Of a DNA stretch of 64,000 nt, positions 10,009-62,169 are shown piece after piece (positions within the stretch are counted from its first letter, which is position 1; each line of letters opens with the position of its first letter). Origin of the DNA: Naegleria gruberi (lineage: Eukaryota); NCBI GenBank assembly GCA_000004985.1, contig GG738854.1, one strand, 5' to 3'. The notes beneath the pieces were generated by a model. The model ran no database searches and was not told the origin of the DNA. It worked only from the letters and a program-made list of their open reading frames with translations. Both the position numbers and the translations under genes were made by a program.

Positions 10009-10308
10009 CATTTTAAATAGCTGATTGTGAATAGTGATAACTAGTGTTAATATTTTATTGAATGAAAATTTCTGGTAGATTTAGTTTACAGTAACCATTG
10101 TATTACACAGATATTTACAGTTCATTGTAATTTAGGATATCCTCTTTAAATGTTTCGAATAGCTTTAATAATGACAGATGTTTTCCATCAACACAATTTT
10201 TTGTTTTTCGTAGAACACATTTATACACCAACTCGTCAAGTCACTCATTTCGAATTAGGAATTCATCATTTCCATCAGCACAACAGAAACTTAAAAACAC
10301 AAAAAAAA

Positions 10309-17296: not shown

Positions 17297-17369
17297 GCCC
17301 CGCTAGCTCAGTCGGTAGAGCGTTGGACTTTTAATCCAACGGTCGTGGGTTCGAGCCCCACGTGGGGCG
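17297..17369 (+). tRNA. tRNA-Lys (anticodon UUU)
   Basis: Acceptor stem GCCCCGC/GTGGGGC (one G-U pair), D-arm GCTCAGTCGGTAGAGC (A box), anticodon loop CT-TTT-AA, T-arm GTGGG-TTCGAGC-CCCAC (B box), discriminator G. 73 nt, no intron. Followed by the run 'gcaattttttttttgc' (Pol III terminator, 17375-17386). Confidence 0.9.
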
Positions 17370-21801: not shown

Positions 21802-24531
21802 ATGGGTTTCTTCTCCAATTTATTTCATCATCACAATAAGAATGATCCTAAACACCAATCCGTTTCCGTTTCTTCCACTGCTCCTTCACTAACCTCTCCA
21901 CACACAATAGACGAAACCTCCCATGCCGACCAAGCTCTCGATCAATCCTTTCGTTCAACTGTCAGTTCAACTCACATCAATTCCAATACCTCATCCAGTC
22001 GTTTATCCATCGACTCAATGGCTTCCTCCTTCTCCAATGCCACACAATACAACTCAACTCATAAACATTCAATGAGTAATCCATTTCATTTCCTTCACAC
22101 TCACACTTCACATCATAATCCACAGAGAATGAGTGTTCGTGATTTTGCTCGACAATATTTGGAAGTTTTGGAGAGTGAAAAGAGGAGAGAATTGTTGAAG
22201 AGTGTTTCAATGATACAGACAAACTATTCGAATGGTGGTTGTGTGAGTGCGAATCAGTCGTTGCATGCAATTGTTGGTGGTGCTGCTGCTGCTACAGTAG
22301 TGGGTGATAATGTGAATTCGAATAATGAGAATTTGGTGAGTGAGGAGGCAACTGTTTCGAATGGAATTGCAGAGGTGAATACAGAGTCAACGACACTGGT
22401 GACAGCTGTTGATAATTCAAACACTTCCAATGAGGATGTTGCAGTTAGTAATGAAAATAATCGTCTCAGTATTGAAAATTCACAACTTATCAGAAATATC
22501 AAGAAACAACATGTAAATAATGAGGAGAAACAAACTTTTAAAAAGTTTATTATTGAAAATGAAAAGTATATTCAAACACTCGATGAAATTTATCAAGTTT
22601 GCATTTATGGACAAGTTGAAAGATTGAAGGAACTTGTCTCTGCACATAGTGAAAAATCCGGAAGAAAATTTTCACTCACAATGGCAAGTTTGAGAATGAC
22701 TGGTTCTGTAATTGATATGAGTGGTGATGCAGAACATAAGAATGTAAAGAAACAATCGTGGAGTCATTGTACTCTGGTTCACTTGGCTGCACGTTTCAAT
22801 CAGGTCGATGTTTTAGACATGCTCTTGAAAGAATTTACCAATGAAGATAATCTTTCAGATGTGCTGAATTGTGAGGATGATATTCATGCAACTCCATTGT
22901 TCCATGCTGTGACTGCTGGAGCCATTGAGGCAACTACATTTTTATGCAGTTTCACTCAACAAATCAAAATTAATGTAAAGGACATGTTTGAATGCAGTCC
23001 ACTTTGGTATGCTCTCAATAGAAAAGACTTTGAAATGGCCAATATTTTATTGACATTTGGTGCTGACATGTTCTTTAAAATTCATGGTGGAGAATCCTAT
23101 CTCCATAGAGCTTGTGACAATAATGATATTGCCATGGTTAAGTATATTCTTCTAGGTATTGGAGTGGACGATGAGATTGATTTGACCAATCAAAAGACTT
23201 TACAAATATTCGAGGAGAGACAGAACTTATTTTTGAGAAGTGATCAAAGACATCAAACACCTCTCTTCAATTCTATCAAATCCTATCAGGATAATATGAA
23301 GAAACGTAAATCTGATACTCTTCCATCTCCAAATGAAGCTCCAAATCCACAAAAGGAACAAGTGATGGACTTTTTATTAAGCTTTTTCAATGAACATGCC
23401 CCAGTGTTATTGCAGAAAGCTTTAGATCAAACGAATCACTATGGACACAATGTATTCCACTTCTGCGCTGAGCAAGATGCATTCCAGCAATTGCTCAAAT
23501 TAATCAAATATTTTGAAACTGATGAAAAGCTCAAGTTTGCCCTAAATCTCAAAGACAAAATTCTAGGTAACACCCCACTCCATATTTCTATAATGACAAG
23601 TCATTATGATATTTTTAAACTATTTATTAATTGTAGTGAAGTTGAGTTGAATATTCCAAACCAACAACTAGATTTACCACTCCATGTAGCCCTAAGACAA
23701 CACAAGTTGAGAATGTGTCAATATCTCTATATTCACTATAGTCAACAAGATTTAGAAGTTAAGAATGCTCAAAGATACTCCTCACTGAAATTGGCCAAGA
23801 GATTGGACATTAACATGAAAAAGCTTGCAGAGGGTTCAACAGAAGAATTTGAAAAGAAGAAGATCGTCAAGAACACTTCTGAAAAGAAATGGTGGCACAT
23901 TTTCAAGATTCACAAGCAAAACAATCAACAAGATTCCAGAAAGAGCATGGTTGAAAAGGGCCATACAACACCTCTCGAAGAAATTTCTCAAAATGAAAGC
24001 GAGTTCACCTCATCAACTGATGCCTCTTCCTCTGATTTATCGGCTCAAAGAACAACCTTCCCTCTGGTTATTTGGACTAAGGAGCTGACATTGGGAGTTG
24101 ATATTATTGACACTCAACACCATGCCCTTGTTGACATTATCAACAAGTTGATCAAATTATTGTTTGGAGAAGATAATGCTTTTATTCCTGACAGATCAGC
24201 AGATGAATGGATTCTGGGTTATATAATTGGCAATCTACTCGAATACACTGAATTCCATTTTGAAACCGAGGAGAAAATTATGTCCAAATATCAGAAAATA
24301 CTTCCAGATGGTTATTTAGATGAACATCATCAAGAACATGTCGAATTCACATCGAAAATTCACAAATTGCATCAAGAATACCTTGAAAGTCACTCCACTC
24401 TATCCTTCCTCAATGTGGATTTGTTGAATTATTTACTGAACTGGCTAGTTACTCACATCATGGGAAGTGATCATATTTTGGTTTCTCATCTTAACAAGGG
24501 TATGAAGGAGGGCCAAAAAATCGAATTGTAA
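21802..24531 (+). CDS. ankyrin-repeat protein with C-terminal hemerythrin (HHE cation-binding) domain
   Basis: ANK repeats include 'HLAARFNQVDVLDMLL', 'TPLFHAVTAGAIEAT', 'SPLWYALNRKDFEMANILLTFGAD', 'YLHRACDNNDIAMVKYIL', 'TPLHISIMTSHYDIFKLFI' and 'LPLHVALRQHKLRMCQYL'. The C-terminus 'DTQHHALVDIINKL...EYTEFHFETEEKIMSKY...HHQEHVEFTSKIHKLHQEY...WLVTHIMGSDHIL' matches the hemerythrin H-HxxxE-HxxxH-HxxxxD pattern. Confidence 0.7.
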   Translation: MGFFSNLFHHHNKNDPKHQSVSVSSTAPSLTSPHTIDETSHADQALDQSFRSTVSSTHINSNTSSSRLSIDSMASSFSNATQYNSTHKHSMSNPFHFLHTHTSHHNPQRMSVRDFARQYLEVLESEKRRELLKSVSMIQTNYSNGGCVSANQSLHAIVGGAAAATVVGDNVNSNNENLVSEEATVSNGIAEVNTESTTLVTAVDNSNTSNEDVAVSNENNRLSIENSQLIRNIKKQHVNNEEKQTFKKFIIENEKYIQTLDEIYQVCIYGQVERLKELVSAHSEKSGRKFSLTMASLRMTGSVIDMSGDAEHKNVKKQSWSHCTLVHLAARFNQVDVLDMLLKEFTNEDNLSDVLNCEDDIHATPLFHAVTAGAIEATTFLCSFTQQIKINVKDMFECSPLWYALNRKDFEMANILLTFGADMFFKIHGGESYLHRACDNNDIAMVKYILLGIGVDDEIDLTNQKTLQIFEERQNLFLRSDQRHQTPLFNSIKSYQDNMKKRKSDTLPSPNEAPNPQKEQVMDFLLSFFNEHAPVLLQKALDQTNHYGHNVFHFCAEQDAFQQLLKLIKYFETDEKLKFALNLKDKILGNTPLHISIMTSHYDIFKLFINCSEVELNIPNQQLDLPLHVALRQHKLRMCQYLYIHYSQQDLEVKNAQRYSSLKLAKRLDINMKKLAEGSTEEFEKKKIVKNTSEKKWWHIFKIHKQNNQQDSRKSMVEKGHTTPLEEISQNESEFTSSTDASSSDLSAQRTTFPLVIWTKELTLGVDIIDTQHHALVDIINKLIKLLFGEDNAFIPDRSADEWILGYIIGNLLEYTEFHFETEEKIMSKYQKILPDGYLDEHHQEHVEFTSKIHKLHQEYLESHSTLSFLNVDLLNYLLNWLVTHIMGSDHILVSHLNKGMKEGQKIEL

Positions 24532-37340: not shown

Positions 37341-37425
37341 GCTCATATAGCTCAGTGGTAGAGCATTTGTCTTATGAGAACTTAAGGTTAGCAGATGGCC
37401 GAGGGTTCGACCCCCTCTATGAGCA
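37341..37425 (+). tRNA. tRNA-Ile (anticodon UAU) with 13-nt intron
   Basis: Acceptor GCTCATA/TATGAGC, D-arm GCTCAGTGGTAGAGC, anticodon stem TTTGT/GCAGA (two G-U pairs), loop CT-TAT-G[intron AGAACTTAAGGTT at 37377-37389]A, variable TGGCC, T-arm GAGGG-TTCGACC-CCCTC, discriminator A. Eukaryotic tRNA-Ile(UAU) characteristically carries an intron. Followed by 'aattttttgc'. Confidence 0.8.
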
Positions 37426-37781: not shown

Positions 37782-37866
37782 TGCTCATAGAGGGGGTCGA
37801 ACCCTCGGCCATCTGCTAACCTTAAGTTCTCATAAGACAAATGCTCTACCACTGAGCTATATGAGC
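37782..37866 (-). tRNA. tRNA-Ile (anticodon UAU) with 13-nt intron, inverted duplicate
   Basis: Exact reverse complement of the 37341-37425 copy, convergent (tail-to-tail) with it. Confidence 0.8.
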
Positions 37867-44028: not shown

Positions 44029-46281
44029 ATGTTTAGTAACTGCCATCATCATGATGATGCTGAACGTGTAGTAATTATATTGGACGATCATGACAAATTT
44101 ATGGAACAATTATTGAATAGCAAATATAAACAAGAACGAAATTTATCATGCTACAAACAAATATTAAAATATTTAACTAATACGAGAGGTTTAATATTAA
44201 AGTATTATGAATTACCTGTTATATTACGAAGAGATCGGAGATTCATCACTGAAATTGCACAAACTTTTGAATTTTACCAACAATTACCTGAAGAATTTAA
44301 ATCCGATAAACAAGTAATGCTAAATTGTTTTAAAAAGAAAGTATTTAATGGAAGTGATATTAAGAGTGGATATATTCCCTCTAATTTAATGAATGATAGG
44401 AAATTTATATTGGAATTAATTGAAGGAAATCCAACATGTCTCTATTTAGTACCGAAAGAAAGAGAATTCGTGTTGGCAGCAATGAAACACGATATTATAT
44501 ATTTGGGATTTCTCCCAGGAAGTGAAAAGAAGAATGAATCATACATGTGGGAATTGTTTTTGAAAAATTGGGAAAATTTAAGATTTGCAAGTGGTGAATT
44601 ACTAAATAATCCATCATTTGCTATAAAAGTAAGAAAGCATGATACCAATACTTTCAACTATTATTGTGGACGGCCACATTTGGCGGTTCATGCAAGGGAT
44701 AAATTTCGAAATAATAGAGAATATGTGCTTTTTGCTATTTTACATGGAAAAGCTGATTTTACAATGATAAAAAAGGTATTTCAAGCGGATTTGGAAATTA
44801 AAATGGCAAATAATATTAAAACTGATGCCTCCTTATGGAAATTAAAGGAAGAATGGGCAAATGACAAGGAAATGATTTTGAAATATGTCAAACATAATTC
44901 AAATATATTGAAATTTATTAATTTGGAATTACTACAGGATTATGAATTTAATATTAAATTAATTTACAAAAATATTGAAAGTATTCAATTTATTAATGAA
45001 TGCAATACTAATTTTAAACAATTATTTACACAATCAGATAAAACTGAATTAATTTCTAGATATTTAAGCAACAAAAAATTTAACATTAATTCCAAAATTA
45101 TAAATCCAACTAATATTAGAGCATTTGGTTCCAAAATTAATTATATACATTTTATAGAGGAATATTTAAATGAAAACGATTTAATTTATATAACAAGTAA
45201 TATTGATGGACAAGCATGTTACGGTTTGTTAAACGTAATTTCCAATAAGAAAATTTTCAATGAATGCTTACAATTATGGAAAATAACAGTTAAAAAGCAT
45301 TATTCATGTTATGAATTATTTAATATAAAATATACCAAACAAGATATTATTGAGATAATTTCATCCATGCATGAATCTCCTTTTCCATTCCTGGCACACA
45401 TTGATAGAAATGTATTTAGCTCTGAGAGTGAAGTTCTTCTCATTGCAATTCAAACCCATTTCAAGTGCTTTGAATTGGCAAGTAAAGAACTGAAATCTGA
45501 CTTGAATTTTATTAGAAAGTCAGTCAATTTAAATAGAAATATTATTAAAGTAATAGATTTGCAAATTGTACAAGATAATTTGGATTTATTGATTATTTAT
45601 ATAAATTATAAATTAAAAATCAATACCATGTATGGATATCAAAATAGCGCTCATGCATTAAATCCATTAATTAACATATTAGCAAAACATTTACAAAATG
45701 AGGATACAGTTTTACAATTAGTAGAAATACCCCAATTTGTAAATTTATTTTATGGCCATATAGATATTAATTTAAGATCAAGTGAGGAATTCTGTTTAAA
45801 AATATTAAAAACAGATTTGAATAATGCCACTAAAATTCCAAATTTAATTAAATATAGAAATTTCATAATTGAATTTCTAAAAGAGGGAAAATCCATTACA
45901 TTCATTCCTAAAATATTCGAACAGGATGAGGAATTTTTACATTTATTTTTTAAAAACTGGAATCGTACGGAATACCTTCCAATATTACCAGCGGATGAAA
46001 TTTTTATTGGTATTCTAATTAAGGAATTGAAAATTAACCCATCCATATATAGAAATTTTAATAATAGTGATCCGTTGAAACATAATTGGGATATATTATT
46101 GAATGTTGCCAGAGATGTAAATAGCTGTTTAGTTTTTCCCACCACAATATGGCAAGATGAGAATTTTAAATTGGAACTTGTGAAGAGAGGAATTTTTCCA
46201 CCTTCCTTTTTGAAACATTTTAATAGCATTTTGAACGATATGGATTTGATTGTAGAAAATGGTTTTTACTTGATTCAATAA
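44029..46281 (+). CDS. DUF4116 repeat-containing protein
   Basis: 750-aa ATG ORF after an A9 run. At least 8 tandem ~30-aa repeats of the DUF4116 type ('D/N-+-E/Q-hydrophobic-hydrophobic-L-x-hydrophobic-hydrophobic-K-x-N'): 'DKQVMLNCFKKKVFNGSDI', 'DRKFILELIEGNPTCLYLV', 'EREFVLAAMKHDIIYLGF', 'NPSFAIKVRKHDTNTFNYY', 'NREYVLFAILHGKADFTMI', 'DKEMILKYVKHNSNILKFI', 'DYEFNIKLIYKNIESIQFI'. Confidence 0.55.
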   Translation: MFSNCHHHDDAERVVIILDDHDKFMEQLLNSKYKQERNLSCYKQILKYLTNTRGLILKYYELPVILRRDRRFITEIAQTFEFYQQLPEEFKSDKQVMLNCFKKKVFNGSDIKSGYIPSNLMNDRKFILELIEGNPTCLYLVPKEREFVLAAMKHDIIYLGFLPGSEKKNESYMWELFLKNWENLRFASGELLNNPSFAIKVRKHDTNTFNYYCGRPHLAVHARDKFRNNREYVLFAILHGKADFTMIKKVFQADLEIKMANNIKTDASLWKLKEEWANDKEMILKYVKHNSNILKFINLELLQDYEFNIKLIYKNIESIQFINECNTNFKQLFTQSDKTELISRYLSNKKFNINSKIINPTNIRAFGSKINYIHFIEEYLNENDLIYITSNIDGQACYGLLNVISNKKIFNECLQLWKITVKKHYSCYELFNIKYTKQDIIEIISSMHESPFPFLAHIDRNVFSSESEVLLIAIQTHFKCFELASKELKSDLNFIRKSVNLNRNIIKVIDLQIVQDNLDLLIIYINYKLKINTMYGYQNSAHALNPLINILAKHLQNEDTVLQLVEIPQFVNLFYGHIDINLRSSEEFCLKILKTDLNNATKIPNLIKYRNFIIEFLKEGKSITFIPKIFEQDEEFLHLFFKNWNRTEYLPILPADEIFIGILIKELKINPSIYRNFNNSDPLKHNWDILLNVARDVNSCLVFPTTIWQDENFKLELVKRGIFPPSFLKHFNSILNDMDLIVENGFYLIQ

Positions 46282-46943: not shown

Positions 46944-48452
46944 TTACATAACTGGATTTGTAATGATAATGTCAATATCGAAAAGTTGATGGTTTTCTGG
47001 TGATTCATGCAAGTATGTTTTCAGTTTTGCAAGCATTTCCTTCTCACTCTTTGATGTAAATATTGGGAGATATGGTGAGCAAGCAACCATAGTATTCCAA
47101 CCTCCGCATGCAACACAAACAGCTTTCAATTGGATATTTCCCCCAGAGTTGATTTTCATAGAGTCTGGGAATAAATTCATTTCTGATAGAGTTGTTTGAG
47201 TTTTCAAAATTCCTGGTTGATTTTGTTCCTCCTTTGTACTTTGATTGAATCCACTGTGTCCAAACAAGTAAGCTTTACCTTCAGAATCAAGAGCTGCTGA
47301 GTGATAACCTCCACAACTCACTTGAACAATATTCTTGAAATTTTTGTGTTCAAATAAACGACAATCCTCAGCACCACTCTCGGATTTTCTATTGAGACAA
47401 TTATATTGATTTCTTCCGCATGAGTAGACCACCCCTTCCTGAGTAGTAAATAAGGTGTGATAGTAACCAGAGTCAGCTGTCACTACTTTGTGATTAAATC
47501 CTTCAACCTTTTTTGTTGTATGCTTTCCATTTGCTGATCCAAAAAGCATATGACCCAATTCACCACAAGCATAAACTTCTCCCTGATCAGTAATGAAAAA
47601 ACTATAGTCATAACCACCAGATGCAGAAATTAATTTAGGGATTCCAGTGATTTTAGTGATAGCTCTTCCAAAACCTTGCCCACAACAGTAGGCATTTCCA
47701 TCAAAACTTACAAAGATTGAATGATAGTAACCTGCGTGAATGGATCTGATCTTTTCAGGTATATCAATCTTGTGTGTCAAACCTTTGTATCCTTCACTCA
47801 ATTGACCATGAGAGTTATCTCCACAGCCGTACACATCACCTTCCTTGGATAAAAACAATGTAAAGTAATATCCACAAGATGCTTGAACAATAAAGTGAGG
47901 AATTAATTCAGAAAAAATTTTAAAATCTTTCAATTCACTTTCTGATCTATCAACTCCGACCTGACCATTAGAATTAGAACCACAGCCCAATGCAAATCCA
48001 TCTTCAGTAATTGCAATAGCTTCTGTATAGCCCATAACGACTGAACTAATCTTGAATGGTGATCGAATATATGCAGGATTCTCAGCATCAGAAATTGCGA
48101 TCCAATTATCACCAAGGCCTCTCATCGAACTAGTTTCACCAAAACTAAACAAAACAGCTTGGGAAGCTTCCAACAGAGAGAAGGATGTTGGTTCGGATTT
48201 ATCGTTACGATAGGCTATTCTAGCTTTTATCATTTCTTTAAATTTAGCAGTATAGAAAGTAGCCTGATCTTTACGAAACTTGGTATCTTGACTTTGATAG
48301 GAGGCATCAATGTGAGGAATACTCATACTAGGAATAATTCCAATAGCACCAAATGATTTGGATTCACCTTGAAGACCACCCGATCCATTGTTTGAAGTTT
48401 CGGTTGATGATTTTGGTTTCTTCTTGAAAATGTTGGTGACGAAAGAAAGCAT
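46944..48452 (-). CDS. RCC1-repeat (regulator of chromosome condensation-like) beta-propeller protein
   Basis: 502 aa; ATG at 48452 after an A-run. Six or seven RCC1 blades with the 'G.V+.CG.N..GQLG' signature: 'GFALGCGSNSNGQVGVD', 'GDVYGCGDNSHGQLSEG', 'GNAYCCGQGFGRA', 'GEVYACGELGHMLFG', 'GVVYSCGRNQYNCLN', 'GKAYLFGHSGFNQS'. Confidence 0.7.
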   Translation of the reverse strand: MLSFVTNIFKKKPKSSTETSNNGSGGLQGESKSFGAIGIIPSMSIPHIDASYQSQDTKFRKDQATFYTAKFKEMIKARIAYRNDKSEPTSFSLLEASQAVLFSFGETSSMRGLGDNWIAISDAENPAYIRSPFKISSVVMGYTEAIAITEDGFALGCGSNSNGQVGVDRSESELKDFKIFSELIPHFIVQASCGYYFTLFLSKEGDVYGCGDNSHGQLSEGYKGLTHKIDIPEKIRSIHAGYYHSIFVSFDGNAYCCGQGFGRAITKITGIPKLISASGGYDYSFFITDQGEVYACGELGHMLFGSANGKHTTKKVEGFNHKVVTADSGYYHTLFTTQEGVVYSCGRNQYNCLNRKSESGAEDCRLFEHKNFKNIVQVSCGGYHSAALDSEGKAYLFGHSGFNQSTKEEQNQPGILKTQTTLSEMNLFPDSMKINSGGNIQLKAVCVACGGWNTMVACSPYLPIFTSKSEKEMLAKLKTYLHESPENHQLFDIDIIITNPVM

Positions 48453-49503: not shown

Positions 49504-52500
49504 ATGTATCGAATGGGTTTATTTGAATGCCTTCAGTTGTTGATTGTTTGTTGTTTGACATTGGCAATGATAAGTTGTTCTAATGCCCAGACCAGATCAG
49601 TTGATTACAAAATAACAACACTTGCTGGAGGATTGTATGGAGAAGGAGTGAGAGCAACAAATGTTGGTATTAATGGACCGTTTGGTGTTTATTCATCATC
49701 TCTTTCTGGTGGGAACGTTTATTACACAGATGTTTCATATGGGCAAGTGAGATTTGTTGATTCGAATGGAATTTCACATCTTGTTGCTGGCTCACCAACT
49801 TATCATACAGGAACAGCCACAGATAGCTTGACTTTTGCAAATGATACCTTGAACATGCCACACAGTATTTCGTTCAATTCGAATGGAGAGATGTTTATTG
49901 CAGAGTACAACGCAACAAGGATTAGAAAGGTTTATTACAATTCAACTATTGGAGATTACAGTATGATTACTGTTGCTGGAGGTGGTTCTTCTCTTAGCAG
50001 TAACATTTCAGCTCTCAATGCCAAGTTCTCTCAACCTCGATGTGTTGTTGTTTCGCCAAATAATGAAGTTTACATTTGTGATACAGGTAATTACATGATC
50101 AGAAAGATTGTGAATGGTGTTGTGTATAATATTGTTGGAAATGGACAGCAGGGATCAAGTACTGATGGCACTCTTGCTGTCAATGCCAAAGTTTCTCTGG
50201 TATTGAGTGTTGCCTTTCATCCAGTGAGTGGTGAATTGTTCTTTTCTGATTATTCCAATAATGCAATCAAGTATGTCATGAATAATGGCAGCATTTTCAC
50301 ATATGCAACATCTAGTGGCCCTTATGGAATTGCTTTCGACTCGAGTGGCGATAATTTATATGTGGCAGAGTATGGATCTAACAAGATTGTTAAATTCACT
50401 AATGGTGTTAGATCTGTAATTGTCAATACTTTGGGCACAAAAAGTTTCAGTGGAGATGGTGGTAGTTCTTTGAGTGCAACCATCAATCTTCCTGCTGGTA
50501 TTGCACTGAATGGAAATAATCTCTACTTTGCTGATACTGCCAACAATCGTATTAGAGTGGTCAATTTACAAACCAGTATTGTGAATACTATTGCAGGTGA
50601 TGGAACTGCAAGATTCCTTGGAGCTTACTCTGGATCAAGATCAGATGTTTCATTATTTAGACCAGAGACAACATTTTACAATTCACAGACTGATGAGTTG
50701 CTGGTGGCCGACACCCTCAATCATCGCGTAGTTAGAATCAACTCACTGACAAATATCAATACATCCCCAATTGAATCTATTGCTGGTTATACTGGTATTG
50801 CTAGCAATGATGTTGCAGGCAAGTTGGGAAATCAAACCTATCTCAATTATCCATACTCTGTAGCTCAATCAGAAACTAGTGGTGATGTCTATTTTGGAAC
50901 CACTAATTTTGTTTACAAATGGGGAAAGAAAGATCAAAAGATTACACTCATTGCTGGATCGAGTAGTACATTGGCAGGCGATAATTATCTTGCTGTTGGT
51001 TCACAATTATATCAACCAGCTGGTATGGCCTTTGCTTCAAATGGAGATTTATATTTTTGTGATTCTAATAATCATGCTATTAGAAAGATTGATACTCAAG
51101 GTGTGATTACAACACTAACTGGAAATGGAACAGCAGGATTCCAAGATGGTGATGCTGCAAGTGCACTTTTCAATAGTCCAGCTAGTATTGCCTTATTACC
51201 AAATGGCGATTTTCTAGTTGCTGATTTTACCAATTCTAGAATTAGAAAATATGTTGCCAGTACCAAACAAGTTGTTACTATTGCTGGTAATTCAACTCTT
51301 GGTTTCTATGGAGATAATGGACTGGCTTCAAAGGCACTTCTAAACAAACCTACAGGTGTTTTCTATAATTCCACATCAGGTGATATTTTGATTGCTGATT
51401 ATTTCAATTTCAGAATTAGAAAAATTTCCAATAATACAGGAATTATTACAACCATTGCTGGATCTGGTTCAACCAGCTACAATGGAGATGGATTGGCAGC
51501 AACATCTACAAGTATGGCTCCATACGGATTGGCAGTAAATCCAATTAGTGGGGAGCTGTTCTTTACTGATAATGCCAACTTTCTTGTTAGAAGAATTGAT
51601 GCCAGCTCTAAGGTTCACACAGTAATTGGTGTTGCTAAAAGTACAATTTTCAATGTAACCAGTTTGGCCAATTCAACTGGTTTATCTTCAATTTCGTTCT
51701 TGACATTTTCACCAAGTGGTGATCTTTATGTTTCTTGCTTTGGACAACATGTCATCAAAAAGATGAGTTATGGTAGCGATATTGTTTATAATGTAGCTGG
51801 TACAGGAAATACAGATTTGAATGGAGATGGATTGGAAGCAACATTGACCAATCTTTATCAACCAATTGCTGTAGCTTACTCTCCTACTTCCAGTGAATTA
51901 TACTTTTCTGATTATTTACATGATAGAGTGAGAAAAATAACCTCTTCAGGATTGGTTGAAACAGTTGCAGGAGGTTTAGGTGATAAGGGATTGGCTGTTA
52001 ATGCAAAAATCAGAGGTGTTTCATCAATATTACTGGTAGACAATGATTTATATATCTCTGATGCATTCAATTATAGAATTCGTAAAATTTCCCTCTCAAC
52101 TGGTATTATTGATTCCATTGTTGGAGCATCATATGCATCTATTTACAATGGAGATAACTTGGCCAATCAAACCAATATTAACTATGTATGGGATCTGAGA
52201 ATTCAAAACGGTGAACTTGTATTTGCTGACATGAACAATAACTTAATTAGGAAAACAAGTTTATCTGGTAAAGGAAAGGTAACAACCATTGCTGGTATGG
52301 GTACAAACAATGCTTCGATTATTATCGATAATGTCAAGGCAACAAGTGCCTATTTGAAAAACCCTGGTTCTGTTGCATTCTTACCAACTGGTGATATGAT
52401 TATTGCAGAGACAGAAGGTCATATCATTAGAAAGGTTGATTTGAATGGCAATATTTCACTCATTGCTGGATCATTCTTCCAACCAGGTTTCAATGGTGAC

Positions 52501-53535
52501 TTGTCAGATTCAAAGAATTCTTTATTGTATCAACCAACAGGACTTTCTATTTTACAGGATGGTAGAATCATCTTCTCAGACTTTGGAAACAATAGAGTGA
52601 GAATGTTAACACCATATTGTAAGGATGAAAAGTATTATTTGACTCAATCTTCACAAGGTATTGTCTGCAACATTACTTCATGTTATGGACTCGCCTACAA
52701 TGATGCAAAAGTTTGTTCAGGAAATGGAATTTGTTCATCATTGAATAACTGCAGCTGCTCAAGTGGATATTCTGGAAACGATTGCTCAACTGCTGATATT
52801 TGTTCTGTCTTGTCAAGCTCATATGTTTGTACAACAACGTCTCTCAACACAACTGAAACTCAAGTTACAACAGTTCAAAATGTCACTCAATTGGATTCGA
52901 AAACTATCGAGTTCTCATCTACAAGTACTGTCACTGTTTCACTGCCATCAACAATTTCACAATACTTGACAAGTGTTGATTCAACATTGAAGAATGACAC
53001 TGTTACTGTTGTCAGTTCTGTTTCATCAGCAAGCAAAGTAACAGAAACTTCTGAGGTTATTTCACCAGTCATCTCAATTGTTCTTGTCAAGTCAAGTTCT
53101 AATCAAAAAATTTCTGTCCAAAATCTCGAAGAACCAATTTCATTATATTTCAATAAGGTCAACATGACTGTTTCGAATATTGAAACCTTGAATGTAACTT
53201 GTATGTATTATGATGAAAGTGAAAAGGTATGGAAATCGGATGGGGTTGAAAGTGAAATTACAGAGATTATTCTCCACAACCTTGCTGATGGAAATGTTAC
53301 CTTGACAATTTCACTTACATGCAAGACTTTCCATTTAACTTCATTTGGAATCATTGATCAAAACTACAAGAAGGCAACTACTAACTCTAATACTGACGAT
53401 TCCACAATCTTGACAGATTACACAGTTTTAATAGGTGCCATTGTTGGTGGTGTTGGTGGATGTTGTGTTATTGCCACAATTATTACACTCATCATTGTTG
53501 TCATTATCTTTGTAAGAAGAAGAGGAAAGAAATAA
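49504..53535 (+). CDS. secreted/single-pass protein with NHL-type beta-propeller repeats, EGF-like module, GPS motif and C-terminal TM (teneurin- or PKD-REJ-like architecture)
   Basis: 1343 aa. Signal peptide 'MYRMGLFECLQLLIVCCLTLAMISCSNAQT'. More than 15 NHL-like repeats ('LYVAEYGSNKIVKF', 'LYFADTANNRIRVV', 'LYFCDSNNHAIRKID', 'FLVADFTNSRIRKY', 'ILIADYFNFRIRKI', 'LYISDAFNYRIRKI'). EGF module 'CYGLAYNDAKVCSGNGICSSLNNCSCSSGYSGNDC', Ser/Thr-rich stalk, GPS 'CMYYDESEKVWKSDGVE...LTISLTCKTFHLTSFGII' (about 53198-53350), TM 'LIGAIVGGVGGCCVIATIITLIIVVIIFV', and a short basic tail RRRGKK. Confidence 0.7.
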   Translation: MYRMGLFECLQLLIVCCLTLAMISCSNAQTRSVDYKITTLAGGLYGEGVRATNVGINGPFGVYSSSLSGGNVYYTDVSYGQVRFVDSNGISHLVAGSPTYHTGTATDSLTFANDTLNMPHSISFNSNGEMFIAEYNATRIRKVYYNSTIGDYSMITVAGGGSSLSSNISALNAKFSQPRCVVVSPNNEVYICDTGNYMIRKIVNGVVYNIVGNGQQGSSTDGTLAVNAKVSLVLSVAFHPVSGELFFSDYSNNAIKYVMNNGSIFTYATSSGPYGIAFDSSGDNLYVAEYGSNKIVKFTNGVRSVIVNTLGTKSFSGDGGSSLSATINLPAGIALNGNNLYFADTANNRIRVVNLQTSIVNTIAGDGTARFLGAYSGSRSDVSLFRPETTFYNSQTDELLVADTLNHRVVRINSLTNINTSPIESIAGYTGIASNDVAGKLGNQTYLNYPYSVAQSETSGDVYFGTTNFVYKWGKKDQKITLIAGSSSTLAGDNYLAVGSQLYQPAGMAFASNGDLYFCDSNNHAIRKIDTQGVITTLTGNGTAGFQDGDAASALFNSPASIALLPNGDFLVADFTNSRIRKYVASTKQVVTIAGNSTLGFYGDNGLASKALLNKPTGVFYNSTSGDILIADYFNFRIRKISNNTGIITTIAGSGSTSYNGDGLAATSTSMAPYGLAVNPISGELFFTDNANFLVRRIDASSKVHTVIGVAKSTIFNVTSLANSTGLSSISFLTFSPSGDLYVSCFGQHVIKKMSYGSDIVYNVAGTGNTDLNGDGLEATLTNLYQPIAVAYSPTSSELYFSDYLHDRVRKITSSGLVETVAGGLGDKGLAVNAKIRGVSSILLVDNDLYISDAFNYRIRKISLSTGIIDSIVGASYASIYNGDNLANQTNINYVWDLRIQNGELVFADMNNNLIRKTSLSGKGKVTTIAGMGTNNASIIIDNVKATSAYLKNPGSVAFLPTGDMIIAETEGHIIRKVDLNGNISLIAGSFFQPGFNGDLSDSKNSLLYQPTGLSILQDGRIIFSDFGNNRVRMLTPYCKDEKYYLTQSSQGIVCNITSCYGLAYNDAKVCSGNGICSSLNNCSCSSGYSGNDCSTADICSVLSSSYVCTTTSLNTTETQVTTVQNVTQLDSKTIEFSSTSTVTVSLPSTISQYLTSVDSTLKNDTVTVVSSVSSASKVTETSEVISPVISIVLVKSSSNQKISVQNLEEPISLYFNKVNMTVSNIETLNVTCMYYDESEKVWKSDGVESEITEIILHNLADGNVTLTISLTCKTFHLTSFGIIDQNYKKATTNSNTDDSTILTDYTVLIGAIVGGVGGCCVIATIITLIIVVIIFVRRRGKK

Positions 53536-56708: not shown

Positions 56709-57533
56709 TTAGTTTATAAAGTTAAAGAAAACATCTGTATATTGGGTGTTGGCTCTCAGGTTGACAGAGATTTTCATCTTTTTCTTTTCCATCTTTTCCA
56801 AAACTTTGGAAATTACTAAATTAAATTCTTCTTGCACATCATCTTTCAATATATAATGCTTTGCATTTCGATAATTTGCCCCAAACTTCAACAATAATTC
56901 AATCATTTCTTCATCTTTAAGTTCAAATGCACGATACAAGGCAGTAATCATCGAATGATCATTAAATTGGTCAACCTTAGCCCCCTTCTCTAATAAATAT
57001 TGAGCTACATTATAATGTCCATTTTCTACAGCAACATAGAGTGGATACTTTTCACAATCATAATGCCCCCTTGATGGTATACAGTAACAATCTAGATTCA
57101 CACTAAATTTTTCAAAATACCACCAAATTATCCCAAAATATCCTTTTTGAAGTGGTTTCATGATAGGAGCAATGAATTCACCATATCTACCACCACGATT
57201 CCTTGGAGAAACAATGTCAATGTGTGGCAAGATTAATTTAACAATTTCCAAATGATTCATTTCACATGCCAAATACAGACATTCAGATAATCGCTTCTCC
57301 TTGATTTTTCCATTAAATAATTCGTCTTTATTATTCAATAATTCATCCAATAATAATTTAAATATTGATAAAAATCCATATTTCGATGCCAATTCCAGTC
57401 CAACAATTACATCTTGATGAAAATCTGACAATTTAATTGCATTCTCATGATAATCATGAATAAAATTCCAAACTCCGACACTGTCTCCTGTTGAAATAAG
57501 TTTGAAAAACTCTTCCCTTGCCAATGTTTCCAT
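56709..57533 (-). CDS. ankyrin-repeat protein
   Basis: ATG at 57533 (A8 context); the track start at 57545 is TTG. ANK repeats: 'LYLACEMNHLEIVKLIL', 'YPLYVAVENGHYNVAQYLLEKGAKVDQ', 'TALYRAFELKDEEMIELLLKFGANY'. Confidence 0.6.
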   Translation of the reverse strand: METLAREEFFKLISTGDSVGVWNFIHDYHENAIKLSDFHQDVIVGLELASKYGFLSIFKLLLDELLNNKDELFNGKIKEKRLSECLYLACEMNHLEIVKLILPHIDIVSPRNRGGRYGEFIAPIMKPLQKGYFGIIWWYFEKFSVNLDCYCIPSRGHYDCEKYPLYVAVENGHYNVAQYLLEKGAKVDQFNDHSMITALYRAFELKDEEMIELLLKFGANYRNAKHYILKDDVQEEFNLVISKVLEKMEKKKMKISVNLRANTQYTDVFFNFIN

Positions 57534-59340
57534 TTTTTTTGACAATGTTTACCAGTCTGCATATCCAACACAATGAATGTTACACTGATGTCAAAGAAGT
57601 TCAGAGGAACATACCTGTCAAATGCCTTTGACATCATCATAGACTCCTCTACTAGTGTTCTAGGCTACTTTTCAGGCAAAAGACATTTTAGGCTATTATT
57701 TGATGGACAAAAGTTCTTGGTGTTGCCTTGTATGTATTAATAACACCGAACAAATACACGTTCCATTATTTTCCACCATTAAGAAAAAATATTTCAGCCC
57801 AAACACACATTGGGAACACTTTGGTGATTTTCAGAGTGATTTCACCCCATGAATCCACCAAACTTTCACATCATCATCTCAACATCATCCTAATAGTATT
57901 ACTGGTAGTATTTTTTATTATTGGATTGTGATTATAAATTTGGAATTTAATTTTCACTTGGGAAAAATTCAAGTTGGTAAACCATCATCGGAACAACTTC
58001 CAACCATCATCATTGTTATTTATCATCATTATAATAGTAATATTTGTGGAAATAAATCTGATAATAGTAATATTTTAGTGAAATTCAATATTTTCACTAA
58101 AATCATCATCACTGCCAGATTCATATGGTAATTTGGAAAACTTTCAATCTAGTATTGTTCAGCATGGTCGATTCCATCAGGTAAAATCACTTCCGAACAT
58201 TTTCCTATTGGTTATCATCATGATAGGTTCATGTATATTTTCAACATGTACATGGACCATAACTCAACATGTACTTCACCAACTTGGAAAATGTCTTTCA
58301 TAACTACTATTCAAATACATAATAAACAATATATTTATTATCAGTTTTTCATCATTTTGTTGTTTTACCAACTTCGGAATATTCATGATAACATATCATG
58401 ATTCATGCCAAAAGTACATAGCCAAACTTCTTGAAACATTAATAAACTGTTATTAGTATTATTGTAGATGTACCATATCAAATATTTCGTTTTATTTCGA
58501 TGAGATCATAAAGATCTTAAATTTCTCTCTAAACATGCAAGTTCTCAGCCTAACCAGATGTTCACCATGTCAAAACATCAAAATAATAAATTTCATTGTA
58601 CTTTTGTATCACACATTAATTTATTGTGTTAAATTCATTGAATTGGAGATTTTAAATTTTTAAAAACTAATCTGTGATTATTTACCAATTAAATATACTT
58701 CTTTAATACTTGATAATTCATAAAATCCTAGTAGATATTGAATAGGTTCATAAAACAAGATATTACACATAATGGCTCTAAATTCATGCTAATAGAGCTT
58801 GTTTAATGAGACTTATCATATTAATGATATTTCCTACCTTAACAGATAAGTGTTGTCTAATTGGATTCTATTTGTGCAAGGCCTAATTCCATCCCTAATA
58901 TAGCAGACTTTTAGGGATGGATAATTTTAATGGAATCTATCCTAGAAGTATTTTTCGCCTGGAAGGTTCATACCAACGAATTTAACTGCCTGGGTCTTCA
59001 TGCGAGTTTTTATCGCCTATAACAACTAGTTCGGCTTCAGACATTCTCTCCTCGGTTGTTGGTCTAAATGACTACTCAGTATATGTGTTAAATTAATTAA
59101 GGAATTGGATGAAGTATATTAAGCCAAGAAATTTCATGAACCAAACAGCTTGGGATCTCACTAACATTTAAAGTCAACCTGGAAACTTGTTCAGCCTCTC
59201 ATTAACCTCAAACCTTACTCAATGCACACAATTCACAATCGGCTGCAATTCAAGTAATACTTGTTTAGTAAAATATTAACTCCGACACTATCTCCTCTAA
59301 TCGACTACAATGTAAATTCAATGAAAAGATTGAAAAAGCT

Positions 59341-60332: not shown

Positions 60333-60405
60333 CGCCCCACGTGGGGCTCGAACCCACGACCGTTGGATTAAAAGTCCAACGCTCTACCGACTGAGCTAGC
60401 GGGGC
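60333..60405 (-). tRNA. tRNA-Lys (anticodon UUU), second copy
   Basis: Exact reverse complement of the 17297-17369 gene. It shares the immediate flanks 'gagca|tRNA|gttgcaatttt' and is followed by T-runs on the minus strand. Confidence 0.9.
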
Positions 60406-60711: not shown

Positions 60712-62169
60712 ATGATGCAACAACAAGATACTAATTCAACAACAACAACAACAACAGAAGGAATGCTCGAGCTTCATGCAGAAGTTGATATTGTTAGAAA
60801 AGGGAGAAGATCAATTCCTTCCGAAATTTTGAGTTTAATCTTTAGTTATGCGATGGTGGATATAGTTGATGGAGAAATGATAAGAAAGGTTGGTGTATTG
60901 AGAGAGCTTGGTTCTGATTTTGTTGAGGCTATTGCAGACAATGTTAGACAATTGAATGTTGGATCCTTGTTGAGGTGTTATAAGGGAAACAAGTTGTCAG
61001 ATTATGCCTCCCACTTGTCAAGAAATATTGACAAGATTGTTCACATATTCCCAAAGCTTGAAAGATTGTTTCTTGATGGCTTGTCAGAATTGAAAGAGAA
61101 TCAATTGGAATACTTGCTAAATGAGTTGAATTTGAAGGAGATTTCAATTGTTGGATGTCCAATTAGTCAATTTAATTGTCCTGATATTGCTCAATTTGAA
61201 GTAATTACTGTTGATCAAGCTAATACAGAATTGAGATCGTCCCTATATAGACAAATATCCCTCTCCATTTACAATGGAAAGCCAAAAACTCGTGTTAAAG
61301 TGCCAGAAGGAATCAACTGCTTTCTCAAAACCCTCACTGGTACGGTATGTGAGCTAGAGCTGTCTTCAAGAGATACAGTCCATGATGTAAAAATGGTTTT
61401 CGAAGGATATTCTGGAGTTTATGCTGATAACCAACGTATGATATTTGCTGGGAAAAGATTGGCCGATGATAGGTGCTTGTACGAGTATGGTTGCACAAAT
61501 TCAGATTCAACCATTCATGTCGTATTGAGATTGTCTCAGGACTCTAATACTAAGATGCTTGACCTTCCAAATTATAACCAGATTAAATTCACTCCTCAAG
61601 AGGAATTGAAATCTTCCACTCTTTACGAACATGATGAGTTTAAAGTCTTGGAGTTGGACATTTTCAATGAGACCACGTGTGAAGTCTTAACAAAGGATAT
61701 TCTATATGAGAAAAAAGATGATTTTGACTATAACATTACCACTGTTTTGTCCAAGCCATTCAAGAGATATCTCAATACTACAGTCATTCCTTACCTTAAC
61801 AATTTGAGAAAGTTTGATAGGAAAATTCAAGAAGTGCAAGATATTTTCGTGGTTCACTACTCTCTCGAAGAGGATCAAGATTTAATCCTTCACACTGATC
61901 CTTCTTATATTACTTTGAATATTTGTGTTCATATATCGAACAATTTTACAGGAAATGAAATTGAGTTCATCACTCAAAACGAACAACAAGTGAGTGAGTT
62001 AGTGGAAAAGTGTGGATGTGGTCAGGATATTGATTCATCCATCAATTATACCTACAGAAGAGTTACACCAACAATCGGTAAAGCTTTAGTTCATCTTGGA
62101 AATCATCCTCACAAAACTCTCAACATTACCAGTGGCAATAGATTTAACATTATCTGTTGGTTGAAATAA
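60712..62169 (+). CDS. F-box / ubiquitin-like / 2OG-Fe(II) oxygenase (prolyl-4-hydroxylase-like) fusion protein
   Basis: 485 aa; ATG-ATG start. F-box 'IPSEILSLIFSYAMVD'. Ubiquitin-fold 'VKVPEGINCFLKTLTGTVCELELSSRDTVHDVKMVFEGYSGVYADNQRMIFAGKRLADDRCLYEYGCTNSDSTIHVVLRL' (compare ubiquitin '..[31 protein letters not shown]'). C-terminal oxygenase core 'LILHTDPS..ITLNICV' (HxD) and 'ALVHLGNHPHKTLNITSGNRFNIICW' (distal His and Arg). Confidence 0.6.
   Translation: MMQQQDTNSTTTTTTEGMLELHAEVDIVRKGRRSIPSEILSLIFSYAMVDIVDGEMIRKVGVLRELGSDFVEAIADNVRQLNVGSLLRCYKGNKLSDYASHLSRNIDKIVHIFPKLERLFLDGLSELKENQLEYLLNELNLKEISIVGCPISQFNCPDIAQFEVITVDQANTELRSSLYRQISLSIYNGKPKTRVKVPEGINCFLKTLTGTVCELELSSRDTVHDVKMVFEGYSGVYADNQRMIFAGKRLADDRCLYEYGCTNSDSTIHVVLRLSQDSNTKMLDLPNYNQIKFTPQEELKSSTLYEHDEFKVLELDIFNETTCEVLTKDILYEKKDDFDYNITTVLSKPFKRYLNTTVIPYLNNLRKFDRKIQEVQDIFVVHYSLEEDQDLILHTDPSYITLNICVHISNNFTGNEIEFITQNEQQVSELVEKCGCGQDIDSSINYTYRRVTPTIGKALVHLGNHPHKTLNITSGNRFNIICWLK

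What the first reader, a model, noticed from the sequence alone, without database searches (positions are those of the whole stretch)
60712..62169. Single polypeptide combining F-box, ubiquitin-like fold and a prolyl-hydroxylase-type 2OG oxygenase
Direct motif reading shows an N-terminal F-box, a central domain with the ubiquitin C-terminal signature ('MIFAGKRLADDRCLYEYGCTNSDSTIHVVLRL'), and a C-terminal HxD...H...R 2OG-Fe(II) oxygenase core. In Dictyostelia, Skp1 is regulated by prolyl-4-hydroxylation and glycosylation, normally by a free-standing P4H. An oxygenase physically fused to an F-box, the domain that docks on Skp1, is an intriguing candidate for a dedicated oxygen-sensing SCF component.
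Basis: partly seen in the sequence, partly recalled or inferred. Interest (0 to 1): 0.55.

Follow-up and report, generated by a model that had tools for sequence, protein, structure and literature searches.

The report
F-box/LRR–ubiquitin-like–lysyl-hydroxylase-like oxygenase fusion in Naegleria
An intact Naegleria gruberi gene, absent from the public protein sets searched, encodes one protein joining a divergent F-box with leucine-rich repeats, a built-in ubiquitin-like domain and an oxygen-dependent hydroxylase closest to collagen lysyl hydroxylases and the orphan enzyme OGFOD2, which points to an untested link between protein hydroxylation and the ubiquitin system.

Summary
The 485-codon ORF at 60712-62169 (+) is real; chance of such an open frame is ~5e-17. 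The window is Naegleria gruberi NEG-M, not a dictyostelid. The ORF is absent from the public protein collection searched.

- A ubiquitin-family domain (aa 200-275, Pfam E=3.5e-17) that lacks the di-glycine tail.
- A C-terminal Fe(II)/2OG oxygenase with invariant H394-x-D396...H467...R477.
- All parts in one polypeptide.

Two points need correcting:
- The F-box gets no Pfam hit. Only its helix-1 signature (IPSEILSLIFSY) is significant. It sits directly before FBXL-type LRRs (family profile versus FBXL2, E=4e-14), collinear with the F-boxes of FBXL2, FBXL17 and TIR1.

The same architecture occurs in N. lovaniensis, Willaertia magna and one environmental sequence. Across the wider family the oxygenase is repeatedly fused to ubiquitin (23 of 150 representatives) and to E2 domains (6 of 150).

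F-box plus oxygenase fusions are already known (Dictyostelium JcdI, human KDM2A/B), so this is a new variant of a known kind. Skp1 binding, activity and substrate are untested.

The parts
60712..62169 (+). Complete ORF, 485 codons plus TAA stop. Alternative in-frame starts are M2 (60715) and M18 (60763).
   Evidence: Chance of an open frame this long is ~5e-17. The homologues have only 2-11 residues before the LP motif.
60712..60810 (+). N-terminal low-complexity tail (aa 1-33, Q/T-rich), not conserved.
   Evidence: Absent from the three homologues. pLDDT <50.
60811..60945 (+). Divergent F-box-like segment (aa 34-78): the IPSEILSLIFSY helix-1 signature plus two further predicted helices.
   Evidence: The [LI]PxE[IV][IL]xxI[FL]S[YF] motif is conserved in all four homologues. 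hhalign to an F-box reference gives 93% over 17 columns, with 0 of 200 shuffles reaching the score. The family profile aligns it onto the F-boxes of FBXL2, FBXL17 and TIR1. Against: no Pfam hit, the F-box-only profile is not significant, and pLDDT is <50 for aa 1-60.
60946..61296 (+). About 4-5 FBXL-type (cysteine-containing) leucine-rich repeats (aa 79-195).
   Evidence: Four-sequence profile against the PDB: FBXL2 4.3e-14, FBXL17 6.4e-10, TIR1 2.3e-6, SKP2 1.4e-5, RAD7, FBXL5, KDM2A. Two-sequence profile: FBXL2 6.9e-4. AlphaFold shows alternating strand/helix with pLDDT mostly 80-96.
61309..61536 (+). Integral ubiquitin-like domain (aa 200-275). The L8/I44/H68/V70 patch and K48 are kept; K63 and the RGG tail are lost (RLSQD).
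   Evidence: Pfam PF00240 E=3.5e-17. Ubiquitin hits in the PDB. pLDDT >90. Residue mapping.
61537..61641 (+). Poorly conserved linker (aa 276-310).
   Evidence: 11-17% identity to the homologues. pLDDT about 53-64.
61642..62166 (+). OGFOD2-like / lysyl-hydroxylase-like Fe(II)/2-oxoglutarate dioxygenase domain (aa 311-485).
61891..61899 (+). Codons for H394-T395-D396, the HxD Fe(II) ligands.
   Evidence: Read directly from the sequence. Invariant. Aligned with 'HHD' of L230.
62110..62112 (+). Codon for H467, the distal Fe(II) ligand.
   Evidence: Invariant. Aligned with the His of L230.
62140..62142 (+). Codon for R477, the predicted 2-oxoglutarate C5-carboxylate binder, 10 residues after H467.
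   Evidence: Invariant or nearly invariant. Aligned with the Arg of 'SGKRY' in L230.

Best explanation
The ORF is a genuine Naegleria gruberi gene that is missing from the public protein collection searched. It encodes a four-module protein of a family seen so far only in heteroloboseans.

Modules:
1. A divergent F-box.
2. About 4-5 FBXL-type leucine-rich repeats.
3. A non-cleavable, non-conjugatable ubiquitin-like domain that keeps the Ile44 recognition patch.
4. A catalytically intact Fe(II)/2-oxoglutarate dioxygenase of the OGFOD2-like family, whose closest characterised relatives are procollagen lysyl hydroxylases.

Proposed mechanism (inferred):
- The enzyme is a protein hydroxylase held within the ubiquitin system. 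The F-box/LRR end docks it on Skp1, and so on an SCF-type ligase, or on an LRR-bound partner.
- The Ubl offers a handle for ubiquitin receptors such as those of the proteasome.
- The oxygenase uses O2 and 2-oxoglutarate to hydroxylate a protein side chain. Lysine is the first guess from its relatives.
- Alternatively the oxygenase domain acts as the substrate-binding end of an SCF receptor.

Shown here: the ORF, the domain composition, the catalytic residues, the fold, the family relationships and the recurrent fusions.
Inferred: Skp1 binding, enzyme activity, substrate identity and any oxygen-sensing role.
Excluded: it is not a PhyA/P4H1-type Skp1 prolyl hydroxylase.
For: - ORF intact, chance ~5e-17.
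- Organism: five neighbouring ORFs are identical to N. gruberi NEG-M proteins.
- Same architecture in N. lovaniensis XP_044545796.1, Willaertia magna ABK040_003427 and one environmental protein. Identity is 39-45% in the Ubl and oxygenase domains but 11-17% in the linker, so the domains are under constraint.
- LRR: FBXL2 E=4.3e-14 plus FBXL17, TIR1, SKP2, RAD7, FBXL5 and KDM2A. The alignments start on those proteins' F-boxes.
- Helix-1 F-box signature: hhalign 93%, 0 of 200 shuffles reach the score. P0122 has a sub-threshold Pfam F-box-like hit, E=0.049.
- Ubl: Pfam 3.5e-17. The L8/I44/H68/V70 patch and K48 are conserved.
- Guilt by association: among the 150 best family representatives, 23 carry an N-terminal ubiquitin and 6 carry an E2 (UQ_con) domain, including an E2-Ub-Ub-oxygenase protein in a foraminiferan.
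- Precedent: F-box dioxygenase JcdI binds Skp1 through a weakly scoring F-box (PMC9485057).
Against: - The F-box is not detected by Pfam in this protein.
- An F-box-only profile finds nothing significant in the PDB.
- Helices 2 and 3 do not align to F-box consensus, and the usual Trp is replaced in the N. gruberi copy.
- AlphaFold gives pLDDT <50 for aa 1-60, so there is no structural support for an F-box.
- Pfam 2OG-FeII_Oxy and OGFOD2-like profiles do not reach threshold on this protein alone. Family membership rests on profile and structure comparisons.
- There is no expression evidence, and the gene is absent from the public protein set searched.
- The three homologues keep RLRGG and may be cleaved by deubiquitinases, in which case physical tethering is not a conserved property of the family.
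- The substrate is entirely unknown; OGFOD2 itself has no known function (PMC10083964).
Confidence: 0.6

Rival explanations
1. LRR-Ubl-oxygenase without a working F-box. The N-terminal LPxEIL motif is a relic or the cap of the LRR solenoid, the protein does not bind Skp1, and the LRRs simply recruit the hydroxylase's substrate or partner.
For: - No Pfam F-box hit.
- The F-box-only profile is not significant.
- Only 17 columns (helix 1) align by hhalign.
- aa 1-60 have pLDDT <50.
- Only 4 of 45 positions are invariant among the four homologues.
Against: - The helix-1 signature is conserved in all four homologues at the very N-terminus, exactly where FBXL proteins carry their F-box.
- Its score is about 15 SD above shuffles.
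- The LRRs are specifically of the FBXL type (FBXL2 E=4.3e-14).
- Three helices are predicted between the LP motif and the first LRR strand.
- Protist F-boxes are known to be too divergent for standard profiles yet still functional (PMC9485057).
Confidence: 0.25
2. Ubiquitin-fusion precursor. As with ubiquitin-ribosomal protein fusions, the internal ubiquitin is a processing site, so the mature products are a separate F-box/LRR-Ub and a free oxygenase. The fusion then reflects co-expression rather than a physical tether, and the N. gruberi copy is a degenerate, uncleavable derivative.
For: - All three homologues keep the exact RLRGG tail, followed by Q, K or R.
- Several Ub-OGFOD2-like proteins elsewhere also keep GG.
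- Own knowledge: linear ubiquitin fusions with an intact GG are normally cleaved by deubiquitinases.
Against: - The window protein has RLSQD and cannot be processed this way.
- Many Ub-OGFOD2-like proteins have also lost GG (LRLSG, RGN, HAA and others), which implies a stable built-in Ubl.
- The ubiquitin here is internal, preceded by about 200 residues, unlike known precursors.
Confidence: 0.1
3. One reading: a dedicated Skp1 (or SCF) prolyl hydroxylase, in effect a PhyA-like oxygen sensor delivered to Skp1 by its own F-box.
For: - Intact 2OG oxygenase plus an F-box-like/LRR module.
- All 2OG oxygenases consume O2.
Against: - No PHD, P4H or PhyA chain reaches E<=1 by profile.
- The organism is not a dictyostelid.
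- The one paper found that mentions Skp1, prolyl and Naegleria together does not report Skp1 hydroxylation in Naegleria.
Confidence: 0.05
4. A non-functional or unexpressed ORF (a young pseudogene), which would explain why it is not annotated and why it has lost features its relatives keep (GG tail, K63, weaker profile scores).
For: - Absent from the protein collection although its neighbours are annotated.
- Loss of K63 and RGG occurs only in this copy.
- Weakest Pfam scores among the four.
Against: - 485 codons without a stop in a 34% GC genome, ~5e-17.
- All catalytic residues, the Ubl hydrophobic patch and the LRR framework residues are retained.
- Conservation is domain-structured rather than uniform decay.
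Confidence: 0.05

Closest known systems
Dictyostelium JcdI/Fbxo13 and JcdH (F-box + JmjC dioxygenases, conserved across protists)
   Same: A single polypeptide with an N-terminal, weakly scoring F-box and a Fe(II)/2OG dioxygenase. JcdI binds Skp1 directly and its activity depends on physiological O2 (PMC9485057).
   Different: - The oxygenase there is JmjC (JMJD6-like). Here it is OGFOD2/PLOD-like, with no JmjC hit.
- No LRRs or Ubl were mentioned for JcdI in the passages read.
- Skp1 binding is shown experimentally for JcdI and only inferred here.
Human KDM2A/FBXL11 and KDM2B/FBXL10
   Same: They combine a 2OG oxygenase with an F-box and FBXL-type LRRs in one chain (own knowledge). Their LRRs are among the PDB hits of the N-terminal profile (KDM2A E=0.0096).
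   Different: - Domain order is reversed (JmjC at the N-terminus, F-box/LRR at the C-terminus).
- The oxygenase is a JmjC histone demethylase.
- They have CXXC and PHD domains and no Ubl.
FBXL2 / FBXL17 / SKP2 / TIR1 (F-box/LRR substrate receptors of SCF ligases)
   Same: An N-terminal LPxE-hydrophobic helix followed directly by cysteine-containing LRRs. Family profile E=4.3e-14, 6.4e-10, 1.4e-5 and 2.3e-6.
   Different: - Only about 4-5 LRRs here.
- F-box helices 2 and 3 are not recognisable.
- The C-terminal Ubl and oxygenase are absent from those proteins.
Procollagen lysyl hydroxylases (human LH3/PLOD3; mimivirus L230 LH domain)
   Same: - HxD, H and R (at +10) are aligned.
- The 'VYxFPlfxxxFC' motif upstream of the DSBH is shared.
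   Different: - No glycosyltransferase domains were detected.
- The context is F-box/LRR and Ubl rather than collagen processing.
- Only 19-26% identity.
- Lysine specificity is not demonstrated.
OGFOD2 and the OGFOD2-like family (Pfam PF25238)
   Same: The C-terminal domain groups with this family: hhalign 99.4%, 69 of 80 relatives score as PF25238, and 4,567 cluster representatives are found at E<=1e-3. The family has no known function (PMC10083964).
   Different: - The window protein itself does not reach the PF25238 threshold.
- The N-terminal F-box/LRR extension was found in only four proteins.
FBXO7, parkin, Rad23/Dsk2 (proteins with a built-in Ubl)
   Different: - The Ubl here lies between the LRRs and an enzyme domain.
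- It is about 40% identical to ubiquitin itself, closer than most Ubls.

Membership tests
F-box proteins (Pfam PF00646 / PF12937) | The sequence scores against an F-box profile at or near the curated threshold. | tested here: not met
   No F-box family listed even at E<=10. The homologue P0122 scores only E=0.049, 13.8 bits against a cutoff of 24.3. The F-box-only family profile against the PDB gives TIR1 E=0.95 as its best F-box hit.
F-box proteins (Pfam PF00646 / PF12937) | An LPxE-hydrophobic helix-1 signature at the N-terminus, collinear with the F-box of known F-box/LRR proteins. | tested here: met
   IPSEILSLIFSY (aa 35-46) is conserved in all four homologues. It aligns onto the F-boxes of FBXL2 (residue 14), FBXL17 (residue 18) and TIR1 (residue 8). 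hhalign gives 93%, P=3.5e-7, with 0 of 200 shuffles reaching the score.
F-box proteins (Pfam PF00646 / PF12937) | Three-helix fold that binds Skp1. | not testable with these tools
   Three helices are predicted (37-47, 54-65, 67-77), but pLDDT is <50 for aa 1-60. No complex prediction or binding assay was available.
FBXL-type leucine-rich repeats | Repeats of about 25 residues of the cysteine-containing LRR type, homologous to FBXL/SKP2 LRRs. | tested here: met
   FBXL2 4.3e-14, FBXL17 6.4e-10, SKP2 1.4e-5, FBXL5 3.1e-4. Strand/helix repeats with pLDDT mostly 80-96.
Ubiquitin family (PF00240) | Beta-grasp ubiquitin domain above the Pfam threshold. | tested here: met
   [not shown]
Ubiquitin family (PF00240) | C-terminal RLRGG, needed for processing and conjugation (a true modifier). 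| tested here: not met
   The tail is RLSQD. R74, G75 and G76 are replaced by S, Q and D, while the three homologues keep RGG. It is therefore a built-in Ubl, not a ubiquitin moiety.
Fe(II)/2-oxoglutarate dioxygenases (DSBH) | An HxD/E...H iron triad plus a basic 2OG-binding residue. | tested here: met
   H394, D396, H467 and R477 are invariant or nearly invariant in 4-80 sequence alignments. They align with the L230 residues.
Fe(II)/2-oxoglutarate dioxygenases (DSBH) | Double-stranded beta-helix fold. | tested here: met
   [not shown]
Fe(II)/2-oxoglutarate dioxygenases (DSBH) | Pfam 2OG-FeII_Oxy profile at threshold. | tested here: not met
   PF03171 E=0.38, 11.5 bits against 23.
OGFOD2-like (PF25238) | Homology to the OGFOD2-like domain that precedes the DSBH. 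| tested here: inconclusive
   No PF25238 hit for the window protein, and P0001 scores E=0.0053. However, hhalign of the four heterolobosean C-termini against seven PF25238-positive proteins gives 99.4%, E=3.9e-21, and 69 of 80 profile hits are PF25238-positive.
Procollagen lysyl hydroxylases (PLOD/LH) | Catalytic-domain homology to the LH domain. | tested here: met
   [not shown]
Procollagen lysyl hydroxylases (PLOD/LH) | Lysyl 5-hydroxylase activity on collagen-type substrates, with the associated glycosyltransferase domains. | not testable with these tools
   No GT domain was detected. Activity and substrate cannot be computed. I therefore call it 'LH-like', not a PLOD.
Skp1 / HIF prolyl 4-hydroxylases (PhyA, PHD2) | Closest relatives by sequence and structure are PHD/PhyA-type enzymes. 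| tested here: not met
   [not shown]
JmjC F-box dioxygenases (JcdI, KDM2A/B) | JmjC-type catalytic domain. | tested here: not met
   No JmjC or cupin hit in Pfam. It may work like these proteins, but it is not a member.

The most novel reading that the evidence does not exclude
OGFOD2-like oxygenases, including the orphan human enzyme OGFOD2, may be hydroxylases of the ubiquitin system. Their catalytic domain, a sister of collagen lysyl hydroxylases, has been fused independently to ubiquitin, to E2 conjugating enzymes and, in heteroloboseans, to an F-box/LRR SCF adaptor. This suggests that they hydroxylate a residue, perhaps lysine, on ubiquitin, on an E2/E3 component or on ligase substrates, which would couple O2 and 2-oxoglutarate availability to ubiquitylation. 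In the relatives that keep RLRGG, deubiquitinase cleavage would release an oxygenase whose new N-terminus is K, Q or R. These are N-degron-type residues, so the enzyme's lifetime would itself be controlled by the ubiquitin system.
Probability: 0.2. Interest if true: 0.75.

Novelty: new variant of a known kind. Interest (0 to 1): 0.45.

Why it matters
If the F-box is functional, this would be a third, independent case of a 2OG oxygenase built into an SCF-type adaptor, after the JmjC proteins JcdI/JcdH and KDM2A/B. It uses a different oxygenase lineage and adds a built-in ubiquitin-like domain.

The family-wide fusions may matter more. Ubiquitin in 23 of 150 representatives, E2 domains in 6 of 150 and F-box/LRR in four proteins give a concrete, testable lead for OGFOD2-like enzymes. 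These are widespread in eukaryotes, include a human protein, and have no known substrate. The lead is to look for their targets in the ubiquitin machinery, with lysine as the first candidate residue.

It also flags a gene that appears to be missing from the N. gruberi reference protein set.

Tried and rejected
- Exact-sequence contig look-ups for the ORF, two flanking ORFs and an annotated neighbour all failed. That index evidently lacks N. gruberi gene calls, so local gene models could not be inspected.
- Single-sequence PDB searches with the F-box segments of the window protein and of the Willaertia homologue gave only spurious hits: de novo designed TIM barrels, Rgd1 and Dicer.
- The F-box-only four-sequence profile was not significant.
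- The afdb50 fold library was unavailable.
- Literature searches for this architecture, for OGFOD2 function and for Skp1 hydroxylation in Naegleria found nothing specific.
- Rejected: a dictyostelid origin; a PhyA/P4H1 relationship; paralogous copies in the window; functional linkage to neighbouring genes, which are unrelated in a eukaryotic genome.
Full report
**1. The observation**

The region 60712-62169 (+) is a single uninterrupted ORF of 485 codons ending in TAA. At the window's base composition (34% GC, stop probability 0.075 per codon) such an open frame has a chance probability of about 5e-17. In-frame Met codons lie at positions 1, 2 and 18. The homologues have only 2-11 residues before the conserved LP motif, so the true start may be M18.

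**2. Organism and annotation**

Five other ORFs of the window are identical to annotated proteins of Naegleria gruberi strain NEG-M (EFC47499, 47503, 47508, 47633, 47635) on a 665-kb contig.

The 485-aa product is not in the 15-billion-protein collection by exact look-up, including the M2 variant. No near-identical protein appeared in the word-indexed search or in the exhaustive profile search. The gene seems to be missing from the public N. gruberi protein set.

**3. Domain by domain**

*(a) Ubiquitin-like domain, aa 200-275.*
- Pfam ubiquitin E=3.5e-17, 62.4 bits against a cutoff of 25.4.
- It aligns at about 40-45% identity to ubiquitin chains, and the model has pLDDT >90.
- The L8/I44/H68/V70 recognition patch and K48 are kept. 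K63 and the R74-G75-G76 tail are replaced (S264; S275-Q276-D277).
- It is therefore an integral Ubl that can be neither cleaved off nor conjugated.

*(b) C-terminal oxygenase, aa ~311-485.*
- On its own the protein scores only E=0.38 against Pfam 2OG-FeII_Oxy.
- H394, D396 and H467 are invariant, and R477 invariant or nearly so, in alignments of 4, 7, 54 and 80 relatives.
- A profile of the C-terminal domain finds 4,567 cluster representatives at E<=1e-3. Of 80 representatives scanned, 69 are Pfam OGFOD2-like, PF25238.
- The link does not depend on the ubiquitin domain. The window's C-terminus alone hits Pfam-verified OGFOD2-like proteins at about 1e-5 to 1e-10, scaled to the 1.84-billion library. 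hhalign gives 99.4%, E=3.9e-21.
- With a 54-sequence alignment AlphaFold models this domain at pLDDT 80-97.
- At sequence level the family profile hits L230 at 4.1e-18 and LH3 at 3.6e-12, with the HxD, H and R aligned. No PHD, P4H or PhyA chain reaches E<=1.
- The domain is therefore an intact 2OG oxygenase, but of the OGFOD2/lysyl-hydroxylase lineage, not the PhyA type.

*(c) N-terminal region, aa 34-195.*
- Pfam reports no F-box for this protein even at E<=10.
- A local profile search among the fetched proteins found that only three share this region. They are Willaertia magna ABK040_003427 (P0001), Naegleria lovaniensis XP_044545796.1 (P0122) and an environmental protein (P0079).
- A four-sequence profile of the region hits FBXL2 (4.3e-14), FBXL17 (6.4e-10), TIR1 (2.3e-6), SKP2 (1.4e-5), RAD7, FBXL5 and KDM2A. 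That establishes FBXL-type leucine-rich repeats. AlphaFold models them with pLDDT mostly 80-96 as 4-5 strand/helix repeats.
- The alignments to FBXL2, FBXL17 and TIR1 begin at the conserved motif [LI]PxE[IV][IL]xxI[FL]S[YF] (window IPSEILSLIFSY, aa 35-46) and place it on those proteins' own F-box helix 1.
- Tested alone, the first ~60 residues are not significant against the PDB.
- hhalign against a small F-box reference alignment gives 93% probability, but over only 17 columns. The score of 33 compares with 8.0 +/- 1.7 (maximum 14.3) for 200 column shuffles.
- P0122 gives a sub-threshold Pfam F-box-like hit, E=0.049.
- Residues 1-60 remain below pLDDT 50, so there is no structural confirmation.

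My reading is that this is a probable but divergent F-box, at about 0.65. Helix 1 is clear and helices 2-3 are unrecognisable. Weakly scoring but functional F-boxes are typical of protists (PMC9485057).

**4. Conservation and family context**

Against its three homologues the window protein is 39-45% identical in the Ubl and oxygenase domains, 26-36% in the F-box-like and LRR regions, and 11-17% in the linker. This is domain-wise constraint rather than uniform decay.

Among the 150 best representatives of the oxygenase family:
- 23 carry a ubiquitin domain, always N-terminal to the oxygenase.
- 6 carry an E2 (UQ_con) domain, including an E2-Ub-Ub-oxygenase protein from the foraminiferan Nonionella stella.
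- Others carry ankyrin repeats, for example a protein from Arcella.

The profile used for that search contained no ubiquitin residues. This recurrent fusion to ubiquitin-system modules is the strongest functional clue available. OGFOD2 itself has no known function (PMC10083964).

**5. Mechanism**

Shown: an intact gene, four modules, complete catalytic residues, and homology to lysyl hydroxylases and OGFOD2-like proteins.

Inferred:
- The protein is a hydroxylase held within the ubiquitin system.
- The F-box/LRR end probably docks on Skp1/SCF or on an LRR partner.
- The Ubl provides an Ile44-patch handle for ubiquitin receptors.
- The oxygenase hydroxylates a protein side chain using O2 and 2-oxoglutarate. 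Lysine is the first guess from its nearest relatives.
- Alternatively, the oxygenase acts as the substrate-recognition end of an SCF receptor.

Any oxygen-sensing role is speculative.

A notable difference concerns the ubiquitin tail. The three homologues keep RLRGG, followed by Q, K or R, and could be cleaved by deubiquitinases into two products. The N. gruberi copy (RLSQD) cannot be. The 'single polypeptide' property may therefore be specific to this species.

**6. Comparison with what is known**

- F-box plus 2OG oxygenase in one chain is not new. Dictyostelium JcdI/JcdH (F-box + JmjC) are conserved across protists, and JcdI binds Skp1 and is O2-dependent (PMC9485057). Human KDM2A/B are FBXL11/10 (own knowledge; their LRRs appear).
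- A Ubl combined with an F-box occurs in FBXO7 (own knowledge).
- What is different here is the oxygenase lineage (OGFOD2/PLOD-like rather than JmjC), the order F-box/LRR-Ubl-oxygenase, and the restriction of this layout to heteroloboseans.
- I found no paper describing this architecture.

**7. Verdict**

It is a new variant of a known kind, namely F-box proteins that carry a dioxygenase. It belongs to an uncharacterised family, and the family-wide fusions give a useful lead on OGFOD2-like enzymes. The main uncertainties are the F-box's function, whether the gene is expressed, and the substrate. Interest 0.45.

Noticed in passing
window 60712-62169: The 485-aa ORF is absent from the public protein collection, both by exact look-up and by two homology searches, although neighbouring ORFs match annotated N. 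gruberi NEG-M proteins exactly. It looks like a gene missed by the reference annotation.
   Followed up: partly
P0122 aa 279-283, P0079 aa 235-239, P0001 aa 235-239; window aa 273-277 (61528-61542): The N. lovaniensis, W. magna and environmental homologues keep the ubiquitin tail RLRGG, followed by Q, K or R. These are N-degron-type residues if the chain is cleaved by deubiquitinases. Only the N. gruberi copy has RLSQD, and it has also lost K63.
   Followed up: partly
related proteins P0062, P0101, P0141, P0156, P0160, P0182; P0061, P0083, P0085, P0120: OGFOD2-like oxygenase domains are recurrently fused to E2 ubiquitin-conjugating domains. One foraminiferan protein is E2-Ub-Ub-oxygenase. Others, for example in Arcella, are fused to ankyrin repeats.
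   Followed up: partly
window 21802-24531 (+): A 909-aa ORF combining ankyrin repeats with a C-terminal hemerythrin (HHE cation-binding) domain, which is another potential O2/iron-binding module in the same window.
   Followed up: no
window 17297-17369 (+) and 60333-60405 (-): Two 73-nt tRNA-Lys(UUU) genes that are 100% identical. The second lies about 300 bp upstream of the ORF on the opposite strand.
   Followed up: yes
window 37341-37425 (+) and 37782-37866 (-): Two 100% identical 85-nt tRNA-like genes in inverted orientation, about 360 bp apart. ARAGORN could not assign an anticodon, and they probably contain an intron.
   Followed up: partly
window 10150-12342, 44029-46281, 46944-48452, 49504-53535, 56709-57545: Other ORFs in the window: a guanylate-binding-protein GTPase, a DUF4116-repeat protein, an RCC1-repeat protein (annotated as EFC47635), a 1,343-aa NHL/teneurin-like protein with an EGF domain, and an ankyrin protein. 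None is related to the finding.
   Followed up: no
window 60712-60810: The first 33 residues (Q/T-rich) have no counterpart in the homologues, so the real start codon may be M18 at 60763.
   Followed up: no
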